Positions 36,498 to 55,222 of a DNA stretch of 64,000 nucleotides are shown one piece after another. The DNA is from a virus (Duplodnaviria > Caudoviricetes), in the IMG/VR virus record IMGVR_UViG_3300021963_000121, positions 1,667 to 65,666 of that record, one strand, 5' to 3'. Made by a program: the position numbers and the translations under genes. Numbering within the stretch: position 1 is the stretch's first letter; every line of letters begins with the position of its first letter. Below the pieces are notes generated by a model. It searched no databases, was not told where the DNA came from, and saw only the letters and a list, made by a program, of their open reading frames with translations.

Positions 36498-37511
36498 ATG
36501 CCGTTATTCAAAAAAGTTGCTTGTTTTACTGATATACATTTTGGACTAAAATCAGGTAGCAGAACACACAATACAGATTGTGAAGATTTTGTTAAATGGT
36601 TTTGCGAAACTGCTCAAGCCGAAGGCTGCGAAACAGCTATATTTCTTGGCGACTGGCATCATAATCGTGCGACTACTGATGTTAGCACAATGAATTATAC
36701 CGTTAGTAACATAGAACGGTTAAGCCAAAGTTTTGAAAAAGTCTATTTTATTTTAGGCAATCACGATTTGTTCTACAAAGACAAACGTGAAATCAACTCT
36801 GTTGAGTTTATGCGCTTATTCCCTAATGTAATTCCTATCAAAGAAACACTCACAGAAGGCGATGTAACTATCATGCCTTGGCTTGTGGGCGACGAATGGA
36901 AAAACATTCCTAAACTCAAAAGCCGTTATATATTTGGTCACTTAGAACTGCCCTTGTTCTATATGAATGCTATGGTACAGATGCCAGATCACGGACAATT
37001 ACAAGCCGAACACTTTATAAATCAAGAGTACGTGTTTAGCGGTCACTTCCACAAACGTCAGACCAAAGGCAATGTTACCTATATAGGCAATGCGTTTCCT
37101 CACAACTACGCCGATGCCAGCGACGATGACCGTGGTATGATGATACTTGAATGGGGCGGTAAACCAGAGTATCGTACTTGGCCAGGCCAGCCTGTGTATA
37201 GAACCTACAGATTAAGTCAAATCATTGACAAACCTGATGCGTTACTGCGTGAAAAAATGCACTGTAGGGTTACCATCGACTTGCCAATTACCTTTGAAGA
37301 AGCAAATTTCATCAAAGAAACTTTTATGCCTCAGTACAATCTACGTGAACTGATGTTGATCCCAGAAAAAGCAGAAATTGACAACACTACTGCGCAGCCT
37401 GTGGACATTAAATTTGAATCTGTAGACACTATTGTGGTTAATCAAATAACTGCCATTGATTCCGAAGCCTACGACAAGAAGCTGTTGTTGGAGATCTATA
37501 ATCAACTATGA
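36498..37511 (+). CDS. gp47: Recombination endonuclease subunit (Mre11/SbcD-like)
   Basis: Metallophosphoesterase motifs DIHFG, GDWHH, GNHD, GHLE, SGHFH. Confidence 0.92.
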   Translation: MPLFKKVACFTDIHFGLKSGSRTHNTDCEDFVKWFCETAQAEGCETAIFLGDWHHNRATTDVSTMNYTVSNIERLSQSFEKVYFILGNHDLFYKDKREINSVEFMRLFPNVIPIKETLTEGDVTIMPWLVGDEWKNIPKLKSRYIFGHLELPLFYMNAMVQMPDHGQLQAEHFINQEYVFSGHFHKRQTKGNVTYIGNAFPHNYADASDDDRGMMILEWGGKPEYRTWPGQPVYRTYRLSQIIDKPDALLREKMHCRVTIDLPITFEEANFIKETFMPQYNLRELMLIPEKAEIDNTTAQPVDIKFESVDTIVVNQITAIDSEAYDKKLLLEIYNQL

Positions 37512-39286
37512 TAAAAATTAAAAACTTAACCGTACGAAATTTTATGAGCGTGGGCAATCAAACCCAGGCTATAGATTTTGACAAGGGTCAACTGACATTA
37601 GTGCTTGGCGAAAACATGGATCTAGGCGGCGATGACAGCGGCGCTCGTAATGGCACAGGTAAAACTACTATCATCAACGGTCTTAGCTATGCTATCTATG
37701 GCAATGCTCTAACAAATATTAAGAAAGACAACCTTGTCAACAAGATCAACAACAAAGGCATGCTGTGTACAGTTACATTTGACGTTGACGGCATTGAATA
37801 TCACATCGAACGAGGTCGCAAGCCTAATCTACTAAAGTTCAGCGTTAACGGAGAACAAGTAGATTCTGACGATCAAGACGAATCACAGGGTGATTCTAGA
37901 GAAACACAAAAAGAAATTGAACGACTATTTGGCATGAGTCATGAAATGTTCAAACATCTAGTAGCGTTGAATACCTATACCGAACCATTCCTTTCAATGA
38001 AAGCCAACGATCAAAGAGCAATCATTGAACAATTACTGGGTATTACCCTGCTATCTGAAAAAGCTGACGCTTTAAAAGAAGGCATACGTATATCTAAAGA
38101 TTTAATTCAAACAGAAAACACTAGATTAGAAACAGTTAAAGCTAGTAACGAACGTATTCAACAGAGTATCGAATCACTAGAACGTAAACAAAGACTGTGG
38201 ACTACAACCAAAGACGAATCTGTTGTTAAATTAGAAAAAAGTATCAAGACTCTTAGTACTATCGATATCGATTCTGAAATTATCAAACAAAAAGAACTGT
38301 CCGAATGGACAAAGACCAAAAAAGAAGTTGATAATATATTGGCGTTGATTGCTAAAAGCACAGCCACACTTGAAAAAGAACAGAAAAATCTAGACAAATT
38401 TAACAAAGAGCTTGGGTTATTAGTTGAACACAAGTGTCACAGTTGCGGTCAAGACATACACGATTCAAAACATCAAGAAATGTTAGATGCTAAAAACAAA
38501 CAGATTGCTGACTGCGCTGAAAGTATTACTGAACACCAAGAAGAAATCAAAGCATTTAACGAAGCGTTGGATTTGCTAGGAGAATTAGGCACCCAACCGT
38601 CAGTGCACTATGACAACATCGACGATGCGTACAATCATAAAAATACATTAAGCGGTCTTGAAAAAGATTTAACAAATAAAAAAGCAGAATCAGATCCTTA
38701 TCAAGATCAAATAGACGAATTAAAAAATACTGCTGTACAAGAACTTGATTGGAATAGAATCAACGAGCTTACACGAGTTAAAGATCATCAAGAGTTTCTT
38801 TATAAGTTACTGACCAGCAAAGATAGTTTTGTAAGAAAACGCATCATCGATCAAAATTTAAATTACCTCAACACACGTTTGACCTATTATCTAGATCGAA
38901 TTGGCTTACCTCATACTGTTGCTTTCCAAAACGATCTTAGTGTTATTATCACTCAACTAGGACAAGATTTAGATTTTGATAACCTATCTAGAGGCGAGCG
39001 CAATAGATTGATACTGTCTATGTCATGGGCTTTCCGTGATGTGTGGGAAAATCTATATCAAAGTATCAATTTACTGTTTATTGACGAACTAGTAGATTCG
39101 GGCATGGACTCAAGCGGTGTTGAAAGCTCAATTGCTGTGCTTAAGAAAATGACCCGTGAGCGTGATAAAAATGTATTTTTAATTTCGCACAGAGACGATT
39201 TAACCAGTCGTGTTAATCACGTGCTAAAAGTAATCAAAGAAAACGGATTTACCAGTTATTCAAACGACATTGATATTGTAGAATGA
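37508..39286 (+). CDS. gp46: Recombination ATPase subunit (Rad50/SbcC-like)
   Basis: Walker A NGTGKTT, coiled coil with CHSCGQ zinc hook, LSRGE signature, Walker B LLFIDE, ISH. Confidence 0.93.
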   Translation: MIKIKNLTVRNFMSVGNQTQAIDFDKGQLTLVLGENMDLGGDDSGARNGTGKTTIINGLSYAIYGNALTNIKKDNLVNKINNKGMLCTVTFDVDGIEYHIERGRKPNLLKFSVNGEQVDSDDQDESQGDSRETQKEIERLFGMSHEMFKHLVALNTYTEPFLSMKANDQRAIIEQLLGITLLSEKADALKEGIRISKDLIQTENTRLETVKASNERIQQSIESLERKQRLWTTTKDESVVKLEKSIKTLSTIDIDSEIIKQKELSEWTKTKKEVDNILALIAKSTATLEKEQKNLDKFNKELGLLVEHKCHSCGQDIHDSKHQEMLDAKNKQIADCAESITEHQEEIKAFNEALDLLGELGTQPSVHYDNIDDAYNHKNTLSGLEKDLTNKKAESDPYQDQIDELKNTAVQELDWNRINELTRVKDHQEFLYKLLTSKDSFVRKRIIDQNLNYLNTRLTYYLDRIGLPHTVAFQNDLSVIITQLGQDLDFDNLSRGERNRLILSMSWAFRDVWENLYQSINLLFIDELVDSGMDSSGVESSIAVLKKMTRERDKNVFLISHRDDLTSRVNHVLKVIKENGFTSYSNDIDIVE

Positions 39287-39513
39287 GCACTGATACACAC
39301 GACAGAATGATTCGAGCGTTTCAAGAATACTTTAAATGGCAGGAACGATTTGAGTACAAGAATTCTGACGAAGCAGGAGTCAAAGCTCGCCATTGGCTGT
39401 CAGAAATTCGTAACGAAGCATCAACTAGGCGTGTAGAAATACAAGAAAAAAGGCAACAACGTAAACAATCCAGAAAAGGCATTATGGGCAGACCACGCAA
39501 GGTAATTAAATGA
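39283..39513 (+). CDS. Small basic helical protein, histone H1-like Hc1-type nucleic-acid-binding protein
   Basis: EAGVKARHWLSEIRNEASTRRVEIQEKR resembles the Hc1-like AG.RARK.L.E core; very basic tail; ATGA overlap with gp46. Confidence 0.55.
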   Translation: MSTDTHDRMIRAFQEYFKWQERFEYKNSDEAGVKARHWLSEIRNEASTRRVEIQEKRQQRKQSRKGIMGRPRKVIK

Positions 39514-39948
39514 GTGCTGTGGACCTATCAAAATCAAACTGTAGAAGAAATACCAGAAGGCTATATTGGCTTTGTTTATCTCATCACCAATCTTAAGACC
39601 GGACAGAAGTACATAGGCAAAAAACTAGCTCAATTCAAACGTACTAAACCACCACTCAAAGGCAAAAAACTTAAAAGAAGATCAGTAGTTGAAAGCGATT
39701 GGCGCGACTACTGGAGCTCATCTGATAGGTTACAAGCAGACGTCCAAGCACTAGGTCCGGAAAATTTCACAAGAGAAATACTTTACTACTGTAAATCCAA
39801 GGCAGAAATGTCATATTTAGAAGCAAGAGAGCAGTTTGAACGCAGAGTTTTAGAAACAGATGACTATTATAATGGTATTATAAACGTCAGAGTAGGCGGT
39901 TCAAACATACTTAGGCAACGTCTTTTAGAACAATCTCAGGCAAAATAA
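39514..39948 (+). CDS. Minimal GIY-YIG (Seg-like) endonuclease
   Basis: GFVYLITNLKTGQKYIGKK, DWRDYWSSS, ENFTREIL, YLEAREQF (catalytic Glu) and YYN; GTG start abuts the previous stop. Confidence 0.85.
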   Translation: MLWTYQNQTVEEIPEGYIGFVYLITNLKTGQKYIGKKLAQFKRTKPPLKGKKLKRRSVVESDWRDYWSSSDRLQADVQALGPENFTREILYYCKSKAEMSYLEAREQFERRVLETDDYYNGIINVRVGGSNILRQRLLEQSQAK

Positions 39949-40400
39949 AGCGGTTTTGGCTTGCACTGGCTAACTTCAAGTGCCTAAGAACAACTGGACC
40001 TCGGGTCTCAGGGACGGAAATCTGCGCCGCGGCAGTACTTAATCAGCATCCTTAACAGGACCACGATCGCAAAATGCCTGCGGTTTGATTATTTGAACGG
40101 AGTAACTATAGGCTAAAAGAGGGTTAATAACCCGCGGCTATACGCATGATAGCGTATGTGTATAGACCTGCCGTCATAAAAAAGACGAAGCTCGAGGTAC
40201 CGGATGACCGCCTCTGTAATGCTTTAACGCTGTGTGACTTGTCGAACTCGGATAATGTTCATTTTTTTAGCCCGGAAACGGGCTAAGTGTGACCATAGAA
40301 TCTGGATAATGCTTAAATGCTTCGCATCTATATTAAATAAAGAAAGAAATAAAAAAGTGTTTGAGCGACAGCGATAAACACGAGCGAGCTAGTCTCGCTC
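39949..40400 (+). ncRNA. Candidate large structured non-coding RNA (family not recognised)
   Basis: Longest ORF-free gap in the window, with about a dozen stems including G-U pairs, a GAAA tetraloop (TTAGCCCG-GAAA-CGGGCTAA, 40267-40286) and multibranch junctions. Boundaries are approximate. Confidence 0.65.
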
Positions 40401-40408
40401 TACAAAGA

Positions 40409-40415
40409 ATAAATA
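40409..40415 (+). promoter_or_regulatory. T4-type late promoter (ATAAATA)
   Basis: Motif upstream of AGGA and ATG 40442. Confidence 0.6.
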
Positions 40416-40441
40416 ATGTATCGGTTTTAGGAATATAACAT

Positions 40442-41584
40442 ATGAGAATCCATGACGTTTTAACAGAATCAGATCTACAACAAATAGATGAAGCACCTGC
40501 TGGTATGGGGATGTTTGGTCGAGCTGGCCGAAAAATAGCATCTAAGTTAGGTCATAGCAAATCAACTGGCGTCTTGGATGCTGGCAATGATGCGATTGCT
40601 TTGAGAAAAGAACTTAACAGATACCTTGGTAAAACAGGACAACAACCTAATTCCGAAGCATTGATAGGATTCTTAACCAGTGCGGGATATCCCACACAGG
40701 GCGTAATGAAAATAATTCAAGGGCATGGCGGTACACCAACTGGTGTACTAGGCAAAGGCTCAGCCAACATATCAGCATTTAAAGATAGAATGGGTATGAA
40801 TAAACCCGCTGCTGGAGAAACTCCACCAAAAGTTGAACCTACTGGCACAATAGAAGTTCCACCTGCTGGTGACAAACCTGCTGCTGATGCTGACGCAGCA
40901 CCTGCTGCTACAGACACTCCTGCGGGATTTGGTCCAAAGACTGATGTTAAAACTACAACACCTACAGGCGAACCTATTCCTACAGGCGGAGTACCTAATA
41001 CTTCAATGGATCCACTAGATGCTATTAAGAAAAATGCCGGAATCCCAGCAACTCCTGCTGCCGATACACCCACAGCTGACAAAGCAGCACCTGGTCCAAA
41101 AATTGATCCCGAGCAGGCAGCAGCTCTCAAAGCTAAACTTAGCGGCGGTGGCGGCCTTGGCAAAACTACAGGTACAGGATTTTCTGCAGCTAAAAAGAAA
41201 TTTGGTGCTACGTTTGAAAATTTTGATCTTGAACTTGAAGAAGAAGATGCTGCCAAAGTATTGCCAAACTCTGTTATTGATCAAGCATTACTACGTGCTG
41301 TTCAAGACAGCTACAAACTAGGCGGTGGACAAAATATCAACACTGGAGCTAGCGGTACAACTCCAGGAGCTGACGATGAGAAACCAGGAGCTATGAGTAG
41401 ATTTGGCTCAAACTTCAAAGCAGCAATGAGTGGTGCCGGCGGTGCTGCTGCGGGTGGTACTGACAAAGCTGCTAGTGCTGATGTAGCAAACACTTTGAAA
41501 ACTGCTGCTGGCGGACAACCAGTTCAATCAACAACCAATCAAGGCATTGACACGTTACTTAAGAACGCTGGCTTGCTGAAATAA
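40442..41584 (+). CDS. Low-complexity Pro/Ala/Gly-rich late protein, probably virion-associated
   Basis: 380-aa ORF under a late promoter; N-terminus MRIHDVLTE...IDEA; long disordered linker. Confidence 0.6.
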   Translation: MRIHDVLTESDLQQIDEAPAGMGMFGRAGRKIASKLGHSKSTGVLDAGNDAIALRKELNRYLGKTGQQPNSEALIGFLTSAGYPTQGVMKIIQGHGGTPTGVLGKGSANISAFKDRMGMNKPAAGETPPKVEPTGTIEVPPAGDKPAADADAAPAATDTPAGFGPKTDVKTTTPTGEPIPTGGVPNTSMDPLDAIKKNAGIPATPAADTPTADKAAPGPKIDPEQAAALKAKLSGGGGLGKTTGTGFSAAKKKFGATFENFDLELEEEDAAKVLPNSVIDQALLRAVQDSYKLGGGQNINTGASGTTPGADDEKPGAMSRFGSNFKAAMSGAGGAAAGGTDKAASADVANTLKTAAGGQPVQSTTNQGIDTLLKNAGLLK

Positions 41585-53268: not shown

Positions 53269-54447
53269 ATGTCAGAACTACTCGAGTCACGCTGGCAGGA
53301 AACCAAAGAGGCACTTTTAGAAGGCCTAAATGGAACTCGTCGTACAGTGATGGCCACAACTCTTGAAAATACCCGCAAGTATTTGTCGGAGAGTGCCACT
53401 GCTGGTGCTACTTCTGCCGGTAACGTCGCAACACTAAATCGTGTGATCCTTCCAGTGATCAGACGTGTAATGCCTACGGTCATTGCTAACGAATTGGTTG
53501 GTGTACAACCAATGACTGGTCCAGTTGGTCAAATCCATACCCTACGTGTTCGCTATGCGGACAGCGCAGGTGGTGTAACAGCTGGTGAAGAGGCATTCAG
53601 CCCATTCAAGATCGCTTCATCTTACTCAGGTAACGCATCAGGTACTTCAACTGTTGCGGCAACTGCAGCAGCAACCGCAGCATTAGAAGGCGTTGCTGGT
53701 AAGAAGATGTCAATTCAAATCTTGAAACAAACTGTCGAAGCGAAGACACGTAAATTGTCAGCTCGCTGGACATTTGAAGCTGCTCAAGATGCTCAAGCCC
53801 AACAAGGTATTGACATCGAAGCAGAAATCATGGCTGCTTTGGCTCAAGAAATCACAGCTGAAATCGACCAAGAAGTTCTAGGTTCATTACGTAACCTAGC
53901 AGGTACAGGTTCAGAGACTTATGACCAAACTGCTGTATCAGGTACTGCTACATTCGTTGGTGACGAACACGCTGCTTTAGCTGTTCTAATCAATCGTCAA
54001 GCTAACTTGATCGCACAACGTACACGTCGTGGCGCTGGTAACTACGCTGTAGTTTCACCATTTGCTTTGACAATCCTACAAAGTGCTACAACTTCTGCGT
54101 TCGCAAGAACAACAGAAGGTACATTCGAAGCTCCTACAAACACTAAGTTTGTTGGAACATTGAACAGCGCAATGAAGGTGTATGTTGACGCATACGCAAC
54201 AAATGATGCTCCAGTACTAGTTGGATACAAAGGTTCTAGCGAATCTGATGCTCCAGCATTCTACTGCCCATACATCCCATTGATGTCAAGCGGTGTTGTA
54301 CTAGATCCAGCAACATTTGAACCAGTAGTTTCTTTCATGACCAGATATGGTTATGTAGAGTTAACAAACACAGCATCATCTCTTGGTAATGCTGCTGACT
54401 ACTTGGCTCGCGTTGAGATCACTGATACTAGCGTATCATTCAAGTAA
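53269..54447 (+). CDS. gp23: Major capsid protein
   Basis: ILPVIRRVMP..IANELVGVQPMTGPVGQI, VEAKTRKLSARWTFEAAQD, EITAEIDQE, FYCPYIPL, MTRYG; strong AAGGAG RBS. Confidence 0.96.
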   Translation: MSELLESRWQETKEALLEGLNGTRRTVMATTLENTRKYLSESATAGATSAGNVATLNRVILPVIRRVMPTVIANELVGVQPMTGPVGQIHTLRVRYADSAGGVTAGEEAFSPFKIASSYSGNASGTSTVAATAAATAALEGVAGKKMSIQILKQTVEAKTRKLSARWTFEAAQDAQAQQGIDIEAEIMAALAQEITAEIDQEVLGSLRNLAGTGSETYDQTAVSGTATFVGDEHAALAVLINRQANLIAQRTRRGAGNYAVVSPFALTILQSATTSAFARTTEGTFEAPTNTKFVGTLNSAMKVYVDAYATNDAPVLVGYKGSSESDAPAFYCPYIPLMSSGVVLDPATFEPVVSFMTRYGYVELTNTASSLGNAADYLARVEITDTSVSFK

Positions 54448-54510: not shown

Positions 54511-54780
54511 ATGGAAGTAGAAAGCGATAAAGATTTTCCAGAATTACGTAAACACTTTAACATATGGCGTAAACGATGGCCAATGTTTAAACACGATGTT
54601 AACAGGATAGAAGCAGTAATAGAAGAACATATTCAAAACTACAGCATAGCATTAGTATACTATAGACAGACTAAACAGCGCAATTATATAGAACGTGCTC
54701 AAAAAGAAATAGACAACATTAATTCTTTGATAAAAACTATAGAAAAAATTGAGCTGATGGCATTGCTAAGTCGCGGATAA
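54511..54780 (+). CDS. Hypothetical helical protein
   Basis: The ORF-track start (54490) lies inside the terminator; ATG 54511 follows TAAATA (54500-54505) and is more plausible. Confidence 0.6.
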   Translation: MEVESDKDFPELRKHFNIWRKRWPMFKHDVNRIEAVIEEHIQNYSIALVYYRQTKQRNYIERAQKEIDNINSLIKTIEKIELMALLSRG

Positions 54781-54850
54781 ATAAAGTATCTAAGTGATTT
54801 ATGCGGTACCCACCGCGTAGGACCTAGAACGTCATTAAAGGAGAAACCAA
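54777..54850 (+). promoter_or_regulatory. Late promoter plus structured 5' leader
   Basis: ATAAATA (54777-54783); hairpin TATGCGGT-ACCC-ACCGCGTA; flanking TGAT/GTCA arms adjacent to AAGGAG. Confidence 0.55.
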
Positions 54851-55222
54851 ATGGGACGTCCAATTAAAAAATTAAACTTCGGTACCGCAGCAACAACTGA
54901 AAAAGGTATTTTAGTTTCCGCACAAAAAACTTCAACAGCACGTACAAGCTATATTGTTAAGCAAGTAGGTTCAAACAAATACGATGTGTATAATGCCACA
55001 GACGGCACTTTCCGTGTAAAACTAGACGAAGGCACAACATTTGCCGCCGACACTGCTCTTACAGCAGTTATGGTTGGCTTTACAGATCCTGGAACAGATA
55101 GTTCACGTGTTGCTATTAAAAAACTAACACAATATAGAGCAGTTGATTTTGCTGGAAACAAATATAAATGGACATTGGTCAACGATTCGTCAACAGACTA
55201 TATCCAATTAACAGCTATCTAA
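54851..55222 (+). CDS. Small virion protein (possible head decoration)
   Basis: 123-aa beta-rich ORF with a strong RBS and late promoter, just after the capsid gene. Confidence 0.6.
   Translation: MGRPIKKLNFGTAATTEKGILVSAQKTSTARTSYIVKQVGSNKYDVYNATDGTFRVKLDEGTTFAADTALTAVMVGFTDPGTDSSRVAIKKLTQYRAVDFAGNKYKWTLVNDSSTDYIQLTAI

What the first reader, a model, noticed from the sequence alone, without database searches (positions are those of the whole stretch)
39514..40400. Minimal GIY-YIG nuclease followed immediately by a ~450-nt highly structured RNA: candidate nuclease-RNA (RNP) system
Seen in sequence: intergenic gaps elsewhere are at most ~120 bp, but 493 bp after the GIY-YIG stop are ORF-free and packed with stems. 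These include GACC-TCG-GGTC (39997-40007); CTGC/GCAG (40022-40035); a three-way junction closed by TAATCA/TGATTA (40040-45/40086-91) holding TCCT-TAAC-AGGA and GATCGCA/TGCGGTT; GGGTT-AAT-AACCC (40121-33); a 10-bp CTATACGCAT/ATGTGTATAG stem with a G-U pair (40138-65); CGTC/GACG; nested AAGC-GAGG-CGG/CCG-CCTC-GCTT (40188-40224); and an 8-bp GAAA-tetraloop hairpin. A possible closing helix pairs 39949-55 with 40226-31. G-U pairs and the GNRA loop work on the + strand, which favours RNA-level structure co-transcribed with the nuclease. The 144-aa nuclease has only the catalytic domain plus a basic insertion (KRTKPPLKGKKLKRRS) and lacks the C-terminal DNA-recognition modules typical of Seg/I-TevI homing enzymes. 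Established: compact nucleases paired with adjacent structured RNAs exist (HEARO/omegaRNA-IscB, TnpB). Inference: this could be an undescribed GIY-YIG ribonucleoprotein, or an independent phage ncRNA or replication/recombination-priming RNA beside gp46/47.
Basis: partly seen in the sequence, partly recalled or inferred. Interest (0 to 1): 0.85.

Follow-up and report, generated by a model that had tools for sequence, protein, structure and literature searches.

The report
Large phage RNA beside GIY-YIG nuclease
The gap after a small phage nuclease gene holds a real folded RNA of about 440 bases; its first third is an already catalogued RNA motif of unknown function, the rest is uncatalogued, and the RNA always travels with the nuclease gene in uncultured T4-like phages.

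Summary
Window 39949-40441 is the longest ORF-free stretch in the 64 kb. It carries a + strand RNA of about 440 nt and about 19 helices (39958-40400).

On 42 non-redundant homologues, 95.3% of pair cells are paired, against 35-41% for slid controls. 54 of 83 pairs show compensatory changes.

Novelty is partial. Positions 39958-40094 match Rfam Polynucleobacter-1 (RF01718) at 91.2 bits (cut-off 37). The other ~300 nt match no Rfam family. A second RNA type in related phages shares their layout and has no Rfam match at all.

Linkage to the nuclease is very tight:
- RNA to GIY-YIG gene: 70 of 71 type-1 loci and 105 of 105 type-2 loci.
- GIY-YIG gene to RNA: 56 of 57 loci.

Upstream and downstream neighbours sometimes differ. 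Yet relatives of the nuclease at 39-63% identity in cultured phages have no such RNA. No guide-like segment was found, and no nuclease residue tracks the RNA's variable bases.

One feature is unexplained. Two boxes flank a hairpin and carry a heptamer that differs between phages (14 variants) but is identical in both boxes of one RNA (165 of 168).

Verdict: a real, partly known, large phage RNA. The RNP reading is possible but unshown.

The parts
36498..37511 (+). gp47-like (Mre11/SbcD-type) phosphoesterase; first gene of the tightly packed block
   Evidence: Pfam Metallophos, E 8.8e-08. Its end overlaps the next ORF by 4 nt.
37508..39286 (+). gp46-like (Rad50/SbcC-type) ATPase
   Evidence: Pfam AAA_23, E 1.2e-14. 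Homologues lie upstream of the RNA in most related loci.
39283..39513 (+). orf76, a small basic protein of no known family. Its start overlaps the gp46 stop, and its stop abuts the GIY-YIG start codon.
   Evidence: ORF list. No Pfam or PHROG match. Homologues lie between gp46 and GIY in many loci.
39514..39948 (+). Stand-alone GIY-YIG nuclease, 144 aa. It has the catalytic domain only, a Lys-rich insertion, and a predicted homodimer.
   Evidence: PF19835 at 122 bits. phrog_447 at E 3.6e-38. Motif residues are invariant in alignment A2. AlphaFold2 model pLDDT 81. Best solved match is the I-TevI catalytic domain, Z 8.6, rmsd 2.5 A over 80 residues. Dimer prediction.
39958..40400 (+). Whole structured RNA, about 443 nt and about 19 helices
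   Evidence: Consensus structure and pair counts on A1. 3' hairpins on A4.
39958..40094 (+). 5' domain, equal to Rfam Polynucleobacter-1 (RF01718), full model 1-141
   Evidence: 91.2 bits against a gathering score of 37. 15 of 15 tested related loci score 89-122 bits.
40121..40224 (+). Middle domain (helices 8-14). It includes the near-invariant GGUACCGG-N-ACCGCC core.
   Evidence: Compensatory changes in helices 8, 9, 10, 12 and 13. There is a weak, sub-threshold resemblance to RF02947 cow-rumen-2: 21.4 bits here, 23.2 bits in L066, gathering score 66.
40234..40256 (+). Box 1 (GTGAC-N12-GATAAT); variable heptamer GGATAAT at 40250-40256
   Evidence: Pattern hit. The heptamer matches that of box 2.
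40266..40287 (+). 8-bp hairpin with a GAAA loop, lying between the two boxes
   Evidence: Helix 15: 5 of 8 pairs show compensatory changes.
40289..40310 (+). Box 2 (GTGAC-N11-GATAAT); heptamer GGATAAT at 40304-40310
   Evidence: Pattern hit. The box pattern occurs only at these two sites in 64 kb.
40317..40327 (+). Short hairpin with a UUCG-containing loop
   Evidence: Helix 16: 3 of 4 pairs show compensatory changes.
40357..40381 (+). Hairpin with an inner GC-GACA-GC tip
   Evidence: 38 of 39 homologues fold to the same form. 17 different stem sequence pairs are seen.
40382..40400 (+). Last hairpin, GAGCGAG/CUCGCUC
   Evidence: Helix 18: 7 of 8 pairs show compensatory changes.
40409..40415 (+). 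ATAAATA, resembling a T4 late promoter (consensus recalled). It lies between the RNA and the next ORF.
   Evidence: Present at this place in 47 of 64 type-1 and 48 of 102 type-2 loci, against 6 of 457 background windows.
40442..41584 (+). Downstream ORF, 380 aa, low complexity, no known family. It is not part of the RNA.
   Evidence: ORF list. No Pfam or PHROG match.

Best explanation
The ORF-free stretch encodes a large structured noncoding RNA, 39958-40400 on the + strand. It is a core feature of an uncultured clade of T4-like phages.

Its 5' third is the catalogued Polynucleobacter-1 motif. Its middle domain and 3' region are uncatalogued. The 3' region runs box 1, hairpin, box 2, then three hairpins. 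A second RNA type in related phages shares this 3' layout but has a different 5' domain. Polynucleobacter-1 is therefore one lineage's 5' module of a wider RNA family.

Shown:
- the structure, the strand and the extent;
- the partial Rfam identity;
- the near-constant position after the stand-alone GIY-YIG gene;
- the matched heptamers in the two boxes.

Inferred:
- The RNA is made as the 3' end of the gp47-gp46-orf76-GIY transcript. It starts about 10 nt after the stop codon, and no promoter-like site lies between.
- It ends before the late-promoter-like ATAAATA of the next gene.
- It acts as a stable RNA in its own right. Its two boxes are two copies of one recognition site for a partner that differs between phages or hosts.
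- It is not a guide RNA for the nuclease and not a leader of the downstream gene.

The nuclease is an I-TevI-like catalytic domain that probably pairs with itself. It belongs to a family that works without this RNA in other phages.
For: Structure:
- On A1 (42 sequences under 96% identical), 83 pairs form 18 helices, with 95.3% of cells paired against 34.7-41.5% for slid partners.
- 54 pairs show compensatory changes, and 0 of 500 shuffles reach any of the five measures.
- RNAalifold found compensation in 51 of 71 pairs.
- Two further 3' hairpins are supported.
- G-U cells number 267 against 36 A-C cells.

Rfam:
- RF01718 scores 91.2 bits.
- 15 of 15 tested relatives score 89-122 bits.

Extension beyond the Rfam model:
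- The part after 40094 is found by blastn in 64 of 71 loci. Of the 7 misses, 2 lack downstream sequence and 5 are a divergent group.

Second RNA type:
- It has the same 3' layout.
- It has no Rfam hit at gathering score in 20 loci.
- No family recurs at E up to 10 in 10 loci.

Linkage:
- A GIY homologue lies directly upstream in 70 of 71 type-1 loci. The one miss has only 47 nt upstream.
- It lies upstream in 105 of 105 type-2 loci that have 800 nt or more upstream.
- The RNA is found after the GIY gene in 56 of 57 GIY loci with 600 nt or more downstream. The second-type profile was built from 30 of these same loci.

Not a leader:
- In L004/L063, L026 and L044/L046 the next gene is a convergent baseplate gene.
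- ATAAATA lies between the RNA and the next ORF in 47 of 64 and 48 of 102 loci.

Matched boxes:
- Heptamers are identical in 62 of 63 type-1 loci (5 variants) and 103 of 105 type-2 loci (9 variants).
- Mutual information between the two box columns is 0.98 bit, and no complementary partner column exists.
- There are at least 11 concordant changes on a tree built without the box columns.
- 7 of 7 independent pairs on supported branches go the same way, sign test p 0.016.

Nuclease without the RNA:
- Gaps after the homologous gene are 148, 28, 87 and about 0 nt in Melnitz, phiM12, S-SRM01 and Ps15.
- L150 also lacks the RNA.
Against: - No transcript ends or discrete RNA were shown. The public RNA runs gave only short contigs of relatives, and such libraries can hold DNA.
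- The constant adjacency to the nuclease gene, kept even where the upstream genes differ (L063), is also what a functional nuclease-RNA pair would show.
- The predicted nuclease homodimer fits two identical boxes.
- All loci come from one phage lineage with a conserved gene order. The linkage counts are therefore not independent events.
- The box search picked the best-matching candidate pair per locus, which leans towards identity.
- What the two boxes recognise is not known.
Confidence: 0.5

Rival explanations
1. Nuclease-RNA partnership. The dimeric GIY-YIG protein has no DNA-binding domain. It binds its downstream RNA, one subunit per box. The RNA then targets, activates or restrains it. 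The restraining version resembles an RNA antitoxin that holds a toxic nuclease in check.
For: - Near-universal, immediate adjacency in 175 of 176 RNA loci and 56 of 57 GIY loci.
- The pair is kept where other neighbours differ.
- The protein is a catalytic domain only, with a Lys-rich insertion.
- Homodimer prediction: score 0.76, best of 3 controls 0.02. In the tool's calibration the mark was reached by 20 of 30 proteins solved as pairs of one chain and 1 of 23 solved as single chains. The three runs agree in 100% of contacts and the partner pLDDT is at least 91. My own alignment was used, so these counts hold only roughly.
- Two identical boxes per RNA.
Against: - Family members at 39-63% identity in cultured phages have no long RNA after the gene, and L150 has none either.
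- No GIY alignment column tracks the heptamer variant. The best mutual information is 0.49 bit, at a gappy C-terminal column.
- The two GIY subtypes (90-95% against 50-60% identity to the window) do not sort with the box variants.
- In about 10 of 105 type-2 loci, and in L115, an extra ORF lies between the gene and the RNA.
- No complementary, guide-like segment was found.
Confidence: 0.2
2. Cis-acting 3' UTR element. The RNA has no life of its own. It controls the stability, processing or translation of the operon mRNA that ends with the nuclease gene.
For: - The RNA starts about 10 nt after the stop codon.
- The genes upstream overlap each other, so one transcript is likely.
- No promoter-like site was found on the + strand between the gene and the RNA.
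Against: - About 19 helices and many invariant unpaired bases over 440 nt far exceed what known 3' stabilisers need.
- An ORF can be inserted between the gene and the RNA without loss of the RNA.
Confidence: 0.1
3. Cis-regulatory 5' leader of the downstream gene. This appears to be how the original catalogue classed the Polynucleobacter-1 motif.
For: - In most loci a + strand ORF follows 400-470 nt after the motif.
- By eye, its N-terminus looks conserved between the window and L115.
- The table row of Weinberg 2010 reads 'y y ?'. The column meanings are recalled, not seen.
Against: - Five loci (three distinct contexts) keep the RNA but have a convergent gene next.
- A late-promoter-like ATAAATA lies after the RNA, just before the ORF.
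- The downstream ORF varies from about 190 to 630 aa.
Confidence: 0.07
4. DNA-level element. The conserved stretch is the homing or recombination target of a mobile GIY-YIG gene, or a replication origin, and the RNA fold is secondary.
For: - There is an island of high nucleotide identity. Between the window and L037, L021 or L055 the GIY gene is 84-96% identical, peaking at its 3' end and the RNA start. gp46 is 55-75% identical and the downstream region about 50%.
- Third-codon-position identity is 0.75-0.83 in GIY against 0.48-0.55 in gp46 for five loci with both genes (L037, L021, L055, L023, L035). L005 has GIY only, at 0.77.
- Contig ends cluster here. 19 of 80 contigs end within 320 nt after the GIY gene or inside its 3' end, against 2 of 80 within 320 nt upstream.
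Against: - Compensatory changes keep pairing, and G-U outnumbers A-C 267 to 36, which points to selection on RNA.
- The GIY gene is present in every RNA locus, not sporadically as homing genes are.
- The GIY gene is under strong purifying selection: about 90% amino-acid identity where third positions are 0.57-0.60 identical.
- The protein has no DNA-recognition domain.
Confidence: 0.08

Closest known systems
Rfam RF01718 Polynucleobacter-1 RNA motif (Weinberg et al. 2010, PMC2864571; I saw only the table row)
   Same: Window 39958-40094 matches the whole 141-position model at 91.2 bits, including its helices. The listed habitat is fresh water/estuary.
   Different: - The catalogued motif is only the first third of the RNA found here.
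- It is not in a leader position.
- It is a phage element in the collections searched. Two pattern scans of 185,579 species genomes gave 0 and 66 hits, and none of the 66 was confirmed.
- Related phages carry a different 5' domain in its place.
Large ornate bacterial and phage noncoding RNAs (GOLLD, ROOL, OLE, raiA, HEARO); this comparison is recalled
   Same: Size of several hundred nt, many helices, invariant unpaired bases, phage-borne, function unknown at discovery.
   Different: No Rfam model of these families matches, even at E up to 10. The fixed partnership with one small nuclease gene and the two matched boxes are not features I recall of those RNAs.
T4 seg genes and I-TevI (GIY-YIG homing endonucleases). 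T4 segB sits among tRNA and small stable RNA genes. Recalled.
   Same: A GIY-YIG gene next to a conserved structured-RNA gene in a T4-like phage. The catalytic domain is closest in fold to I-TevI. There are signs of local genetic exchange.
   Different: The protein is 144 aa with no DNA-binding module. It is present in all related loci rather than sporadically, and it is under strong purifying selection.
OMEGA systems (IscB/TnpB with omega RNA; HEARO)
   Same: A compact nuclease gene with an adjacent long structured RNA.
   Different: - The nuclease fold is different: GIY-YIG, not RuvC/HNH.
- No transposon ends were looked for.
- No guide segment was found.
- No Rfam match to HEARO or the IS605-orfB RNAs.
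Type III toxin-antitoxin pairs (ToxIN); recalled
   Same: A nuclease gene beside an RNA with repeated units that stay identical to each other.
   Different: Here there are only two short boxes inside a large folded RNA. The RNA lies downstream, not upstream. The protein is a GIY-YIG DNA-nuclease fold, not ToxN.
Rfam RF02947 cow-rumen-2 RNA motif
   Same: The middle domain aligns over the full 106-position model. Shared features are a UAGC-loop hairpin, GCCGNCA, GG-AUGA-CC and GUAA. A second relative hits at the same place.
   Different: Scores are 21.4 and 23.2 bits against a gathering score of 66. This is a lead only, not a membership.

Membership tests
Rfam RF01718 Polynucleobacter-1 | Covariance-model score at or above the gathering score of 37 bits over the whole model | tested here: met
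   91.2 bits, model positions 1-141, window 39958-40094 +.
Rfam RF01718 Polynucleobacter-1 | Model helices kept by covariation in relatives | tested here: met
   Helices 1, 4, 5 and 7 each have 4 pairs with compensatory changes. Helices 3 and 6 never vary.
Rfam RF01718 Polynucleobacter-1 | Proposed cis-regulatory (5' UTR) position | tested here: not met
   A convergent gene follows in five loci. A late-promoter-like ATAAATA lies between the RNA and the next ORF. This feature is the catalogue's guess, not part of the model.
Rfam RF02947 cow-rumen-2 | Score at or above the gathering score of 66 bits | tested here: not met
   21.4 bits (window 40136-40232) and 23.2 bits (L066).
GIY-YIG nuclease superfamily (Pfam PF19835 SegE_GIY-YIG) | Profile score above the cut-off and catalytic motif residues present | tested here: met
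   122 bits against a cut-off of 25. The GFVY and YIG motifs, R87, E103 and N120 are invariant in 32 sequences.
GIY-YIG nuclease superfamily | GIY-YIG fold | tested here: met
   Model pLDDT 81.3. I-TevI catalytic domain 1ln0: Foldseek probability 0.99; VIA-align Z 8.6, rmsd 2.5 A, 80 residues aligned. UvrC N-terminal domain Z 6.3.
Seg / I-TevI-type homing endonucleases | C-terminal DNA-binding module joined to the catalytic domain | tested here: not met
   The protein is 144 aa and PF19835 covers residues 3-123. No other Pfam domain is found.
Seg / I-TevI-type homing endonucleases | Sporadic presence among related genomes, a sign of mobility | tested here: not met
   The gene is present in 70 of 71 and 105 of 105 RNA loci. 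There is an identity island in some pairs, so local exchange does occur.
RNA-guided nucleases (OMEGA: IscB/TnpB with omega RNA) | RuvC or HNH nuclease with a cognate omega RNA family | tested here: not met
   The nuclease is GIY-YIG. There is no Rfam match to HEARO or the IS605-orfB RNAs at E up to 10.
RNA-guided nucleases (OMEGA: IscB/TnpB with omega RNA) | Variable guide segment complementary to a target | tested here: inconclusive
   No complementary partner column exists inside the RNA. Targets elsewhere in the phage or host were not searched.
T4 endonuclease II (denA)-like minimal GIY-YIG enzymes (recalled) | Sequence or fold similarity to T4 EndoII | tested here: inconclusive
   No PDB sequence hit for the single protein or the profile. 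EndoII is not among the listed fold matches, which does not exclude it. The Melnitz homologue lies just after nrdB; T4 denA lies there too (recalled).
Group I introns carrying GIY-YIG genes | Match to the group I intron model and flanking exons | tested here: not met
   No intron family matches at E up to 10. The flanks are separate genes.
Type III toxin-antitoxin (ToxIN-like) | Tandem RNA repeats upstream of a ToxN/AbiQ-fold endoribonuclease | tested here: not met
   The protein has a GIY-YIG fold. The RNA lies downstream. There are only two 22-23-nt boxes. The PADLOC library was not searched.

The most novel reading that the evidence does not exclude
The RNA and the nuclease form one working unit. 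The homodimeric, domain-poor GIY-YIG enzyme sits on the two matched boxes of its own downstream RNA. The RNA either holds the nuclease inactive until needed, like an RNA antitoxin, or directs it. The phage-specific heptamer acts as the lock that keeps each phage's RNA and partner matched. That would be the first ribonucleoprotein built on a GIY-YIG nuclease.
Probability: 0.15. Interest if true: 0.85.

Novelty: new variant of a known kind. Interest (0 to 1): 0.6.

Why it matters
- An orphan Rfam motif known since 2010 turns out to be one module of a much larger phage RNA. That gives it a genomic home (uncultured T4-like phages), a full extent, and a constant protein-coding partner.
- The wider family has a second type that Rfam does not cover. 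It adds a large, ornate RNA to the short list of such RNAs in phages, several of which proved to be ribozymes or large assemblies (recalled).
- The two boxes stay identical to each other while differing between phages. This is an unusual signature and gives a direct handle for experiments: change one box, or both.
- If the nuclease and the RNA work together, it would be a new kind of nuclease-RNA system. If not, it is still a conserved phage RNA whose function is open.

Tried and rejected
- **tRNA or tmRNA.** ARAGORN found none in the window.
- **Group I intron or other known ribozymes and large RNAs.** No Rfam match at E up to 10 in 39400-40600 apart from RF01718 and chance-level rows.
- **Boxes as a genome-wide promoter motif.** GTGAC-N(8-14)-GATAAT occurs only at the two box sites in 64 kb. 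The 10-mer with one mismatch is at chance level. No + strand sigma-70-like site was found in 39000-41000.
- **Box 1 pairing with box 2.** RNAalifold suggested this. The GC and AC heptamer variants break it, by eye.
- **Small conserved ORF in the gap.** The 46- and 47-aa ORFs are crossed by frame-breaking indels. The commonest box 2 variant puts a stop in that frame, by eye.
- **CsrA-type GGA sites** (recalled consensus). Most variants have AGA or ACA.
- **Closing helix 39949-55 with 40226-31.** No covariation supports it.
- **Long-range pairing of CGCU (about 40227-30) with the GAGCG hairpin**. My column check was mis-registered, so this is left open.
- **Bacterial or archaeal copies.** The first pattern gave 0 hits. 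The looser pattern gave 66 hits, all matching only about 25 nt with nhmmer E 0.009 or worse.
- **T4 EndoII likeness.** Not found by sequence and not listed by fold.
- **Expression.** Ten RNA runs held small shares of the words. Four were laid at 80% likeness and gave short contigs of relatives over gp46, orf76, GIY and the RNA up to about 40338, with nothing over 40339-40824. These are contigs from libraries that can hold DNA, so they show neither a transcript nor its ends.
- **Nuclease residues tracking the heptamer.** None was convincing.
- **Column-based count of the 40357-81 stem on A1 and A4.** It failed because the window row is out of register. It was replaced by per-sequence folds.
- **The search of earlier findings.** Closed.
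- **Supplements.** Those of Weinberg 2010 (genomic contexts of the motif) and of PMC10690425 (8,495 viral candidate RNAs of 29-151 nt) could not be seen. Pieces of the uncatalogued part may be listed there.
- **Print searches.**
  - 'Polynucleobacter-1' and 'RF01718' found only catalogue-type mentions.
  - GIY-YIG with RNA-guided, noncoding RNA and phage returned 407 papers holding at least 3 of the 4 terms. Among the 15 titles and abstract starts shown, none described a GIY-YIG with a partner RNA.
  - Structured RNA, T4-like, freshwater and related terms found nothing describing this RNA.
  - 'cow-rumen-2' gave only the Rfam 15 paper and its preprint.
  - 'freshwater-2' with 'RNA motif' gave nothing.
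Full report
**What is there.**
- The window is a fragment of a T4-like virus record.
- Four overlapping or abutting + strand genes run into the finding:
  - a gp47-like phosphoesterase, 36498-37511;
  - a gp46-like ATPase, 37508-39286;
  - orf76, a 76-aa basic ORF, 39283-39513;
  - a 144-aa GIY-YIG protein, 39514-39948.
- After the GIY-YIG gene come 493 nt without an ORF. This is the longest such stretch in the window; the next is 109 nt when ORFs of 70 aa or more on either strand are counted.
- Next is a low-complexity 380-aa ORF at 40442.

**The RNA is real.**
- A conserved 27-nt piece of the gap was used as a pattern. It found 71 viral contigs.
- I aligned the 42 elements that are under 96% identical (A1).
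- RNAalifold predicted 71 pairs, 51 with compensatory changes.
- A structure of 83 pairs in 18 helices, built from block-wise consensus folds, gave these counts:
  - 95.3% of cells paired, against 34.7-41.5% when the 3' partners are slid by 1-3 columns;
  - 54 pairs with changes on both sides;
  - none of 500 shuffles reaching any of the five measures.
- These sequences are related, so the shuffle count is not a probability. The slid control is the fairer one.
- Two more 3' hairpins hold. The 40357-81 hairpin folds to the same form in 38 of 39 sequences, with 17 different stem sequence pairs. The last hairpin has 7 of 8 pairs compensated.
- G-U cells outnumber A-C cells 267 to 36, so the + strand is the one under selection.
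- Single-sequence folding agrees weakly: z -2.5 on the + strand, -1.45 on the - strand, and -3.3 for 40095-40300.
The proposed closing helix has no covariation support.

**Part of it is already known.**
- Positions 39958-40094 match Rfam RF01718 (Polynucleobacter-1) over the whole model, at 91.2 bits against a gathering score of 37.
- All 15 related loci tested also match, at 89-122 bits.
- In the papers searched, the motif appears only as one table row of Weinberg et al. [quoted passage not shown] I saw that row only. The column meanings are recalled, and the supplement with its contexts is closed.
- The remaining ~300 nt match no family.
- The middle domain shows a weak full-length likeness to cow-rumen-2: 21.4 bits here and 23.2 bits in L066, against a gathering score of 66. 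I keep this as a lead only.

**A wider family.**
- A search with an alignment of the nuclease (A2) found at least 585 viral contigs; the best 80 were kept.
- Many of these carry a long gap after the gene that the freshwater profile matches only in its 3' half.
- Aligned on their own (A3), they show the same 3' layout: box 1, hairpin, box 2, short hairpin, A-rich linker, two hairpins, then ATAAATA and a start codon.
- They have a different 5' domain and a different conserved middle motif.
- Rfam finds nothing in 20 of them at gathering scores. No family recurs in 10 others at E up to 10.
- Polynucleobacter-1 is therefore one lineage's 5' module of a larger RNA family.

**Linkage to the nuclease gene.**
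- From the RNA side, a GIY homologue ends 34-54 nt (once 106 nt) before the motif in 70 of 71 type-1 loci. The miss has 47 nt of upstream sequence.
Of the 105 with 800 nt or more upstream, all 105 have the gene 143-570 nt before the motif.
- From the gene side, 56 of 57 GIY loci with 600 nt or more downstream have the RNA. Only L150 does not. The type-2 profile was built from 30 of these loci.
- Most loci share gp46 and orf76 upstream, so much of this is inherited gene order and not independent events.
- Still, L063 and L026 lack a gp46 hit upstream. L004/L063, L026 and L044/L046 have a convergent baseplate gene downstream in place of the usual ORF. The GIY gene is the one constant neighbour.
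- In L115, and in about 10 type-2 loci, an extra small ORF sits between the gene and the RNA.

**The nuclease.**
- It matches PF19835 and phrog_447. The latter is a 148-position family oddly labelled 'NAD synthetase'.
- The catalytic residues are invariant in 32 sequences.
- The AlphaFold2 model (pLDDT 81.3) is closest to the I-TevI catalytic domain: Foldseek probability 0.99; VIA-align Z 8.6, rmsd 2.5 A over 80 residues. PD-T4-3 and the UvrC N-terminal domain follow.
- There is no DNA-binding module.
- A two-copy prediction supports a homodimer through residues 101-138:
  - score 0.76, best of 3 controls 0.02;
  - in the tool's calibration the mark was reached by 20 of 30 proteins solved as pairs of one chain and 1 of 23 solved as single chains;
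  - the runs agree in 100% of contacts and the partner pLDDT is at least 91;
  - my own alignment was used, so those counts hold only roughly.
  - This is the model's confidence, not a measurement.
- The family is wider than the RNA. 35 cultured-phage records hold relatives at 39-63% identity. In Melnitz, phiM12, S-SRM01 and Ps15 the gene sits in four different contexts, with gaps of 148, 28, 87 and about 0 nt after it.
- Against some relatives the gene is an island of high nucleotide identity, 84-96% against 55-75% in gp46, with third-position identity of 0.75-0.83 against 0.48-0.55. Against others third positions are near saturation while the protein stays about 90% identical.
- So the gene is exchanged locally at times, and it is under strong purifying selection.

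**The matched boxes.**
- Two boxes, 40234-56 and 40289-310, flank the 40266-87 hairpin.
- Each ends in a heptamer that varies between phages but is the same in both boxes:
  - 62 of 63 type-1 loci, with five variants;
  - 103 of 105 type-2 loci, with nine variants. The other two differ at the last base only.
- My search took the best-matching candidate pair per locus, which leans towards identity.
- On A1, without that choice, the two A/G columns share 0.98 bit, and no column in the RNA is complementary to them.
- On a tree built without the box columns the base changes at least 11 times, always in both boxes. All 7 independent pairs on supported branches go the same way, sign test p 0.016.
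- The box pattern occurs nowhere else in the window.
- Identity rather than complementarity suggests two copies of one recognition site for a shared partner, or gene conversion. I could not tell which.
- No nuclease residue tracks the variant.

**Position in transcription (inferred).**
- The RNA starts about 10 nt after the GIY stop, with no promoter-like site between.
- ATAAATA resembles the T4 late-promoter consensus (recalled). It lies between the last hairpin and the next start codon in 47 of 64 type-1 and 48 of 102 type-2 loci, against 6 of 457 background windows.
- This fits an RNA made at the end of the gp47-GIY transcript, and a next gene with its own late promoter.
- Public RNA runs gave only short contigs of relatives and cannot settle this.

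**Verdict.**
This is a real, large, partly catalogued phage RNA with an unusually constant nuclease partner.
- A ribonucleoprotein is not shown, and there is some evidence against an obligate one.
- I put 0.5 on an RNA that works in its own right and is co-transcribed after the nuclease gene. I put 0.2 on a nuclease-RNA unit. The rest is spread over a 3' UTR element, a leader, and a DNA-level element.

Noticed in passing
window 54777-54853 (+): A second Rfam hit: freshwater-2 (RF02980), 52.2 bits against a gathering score of 49.9. It begins exactly at an ATAAATA. It lies just upstream of a 123-aa ORF (54851-55222) and downstream of the gp23 major capsid gene (53269-54447). It may be a late promoter plus leader rather than a free RNA.
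   Followed up: partly
window + strand 40409, 42748, 49666, 54777, 58025, 62903: ATAAATA occurs at only six + strand places in 64 kb. At least three lie just upstream of ORFs (40442, 42817, 54851). This fits T4-type late promoters; the consensus is recalled.
   Followed up: partly
L074-L153 and L223-L340, at the RNA: Contig ends pile up in the RNA. 19 of 80 GIY-selected contigs end inside the gene's 3' end or within 320 nt after it, against 2 of 80 within 320 nt upstream. In the type-2 set, 12 of 118 end within 200 nt after the middle motif and 9 begin inside the RNA or the gene. This looks like an assembly break at a conserved element with a hypervariable insert.
   Followed up: no
L024:11190-11680 (A1 columns 260-423): A natural deletion variant. 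It keeps the 5' domain, box 2 and the 3' hairpins but lacks most of the middle domain, box 1 and the hairpin between the boxes.
   Followed up: no
window 40442-41584 and L115:4166-4789: The downstream ORF has no known family and is low in complexity. It varies from about 190 to 630 aa between loci. By eye, its N-terminus looks conserved between the window and L115. tblastn missed it, probably through the low-complexity filter.
   Followed up: partly
window 39283-39513: orf76 is a small basic protein wedged between gp46 and the GIY gene with overlapping stop and start codons. It is conserved in many related loci and matches no Pfam or PHROG family. It is another candidate partner of the RNA.
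   Followed up: no
L115:3419-3697, and type-2 loci with the GIY gene ending 487-570 nt before the middle motif: An extra 92-aa ORF is inserted between the GIY gene and the RNA in some phages.
   Followed up: no
phrog_447 and RefSeq records of phiM12, phiN3, S-SRM01 and Stenotrophomonas phages: This small GIY-YIG family is widely labelled 'NAD synthetase' in phage annotation. That looks like a carried-over mislabel.
   Followed up: no
A3 columns about 555-630 (type-2 RNAs): A segment of very variable length and sequence, often hairpin-forming, lies between two near-invariant motifs of the type-2 RNA.
   Followed up: no
L150:2153-2578: A GIY homologue at 69% identity is followed at once by ORFs, and no RNA is detected. 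It is the only such case among the 57 loci.
   Followed up: partly
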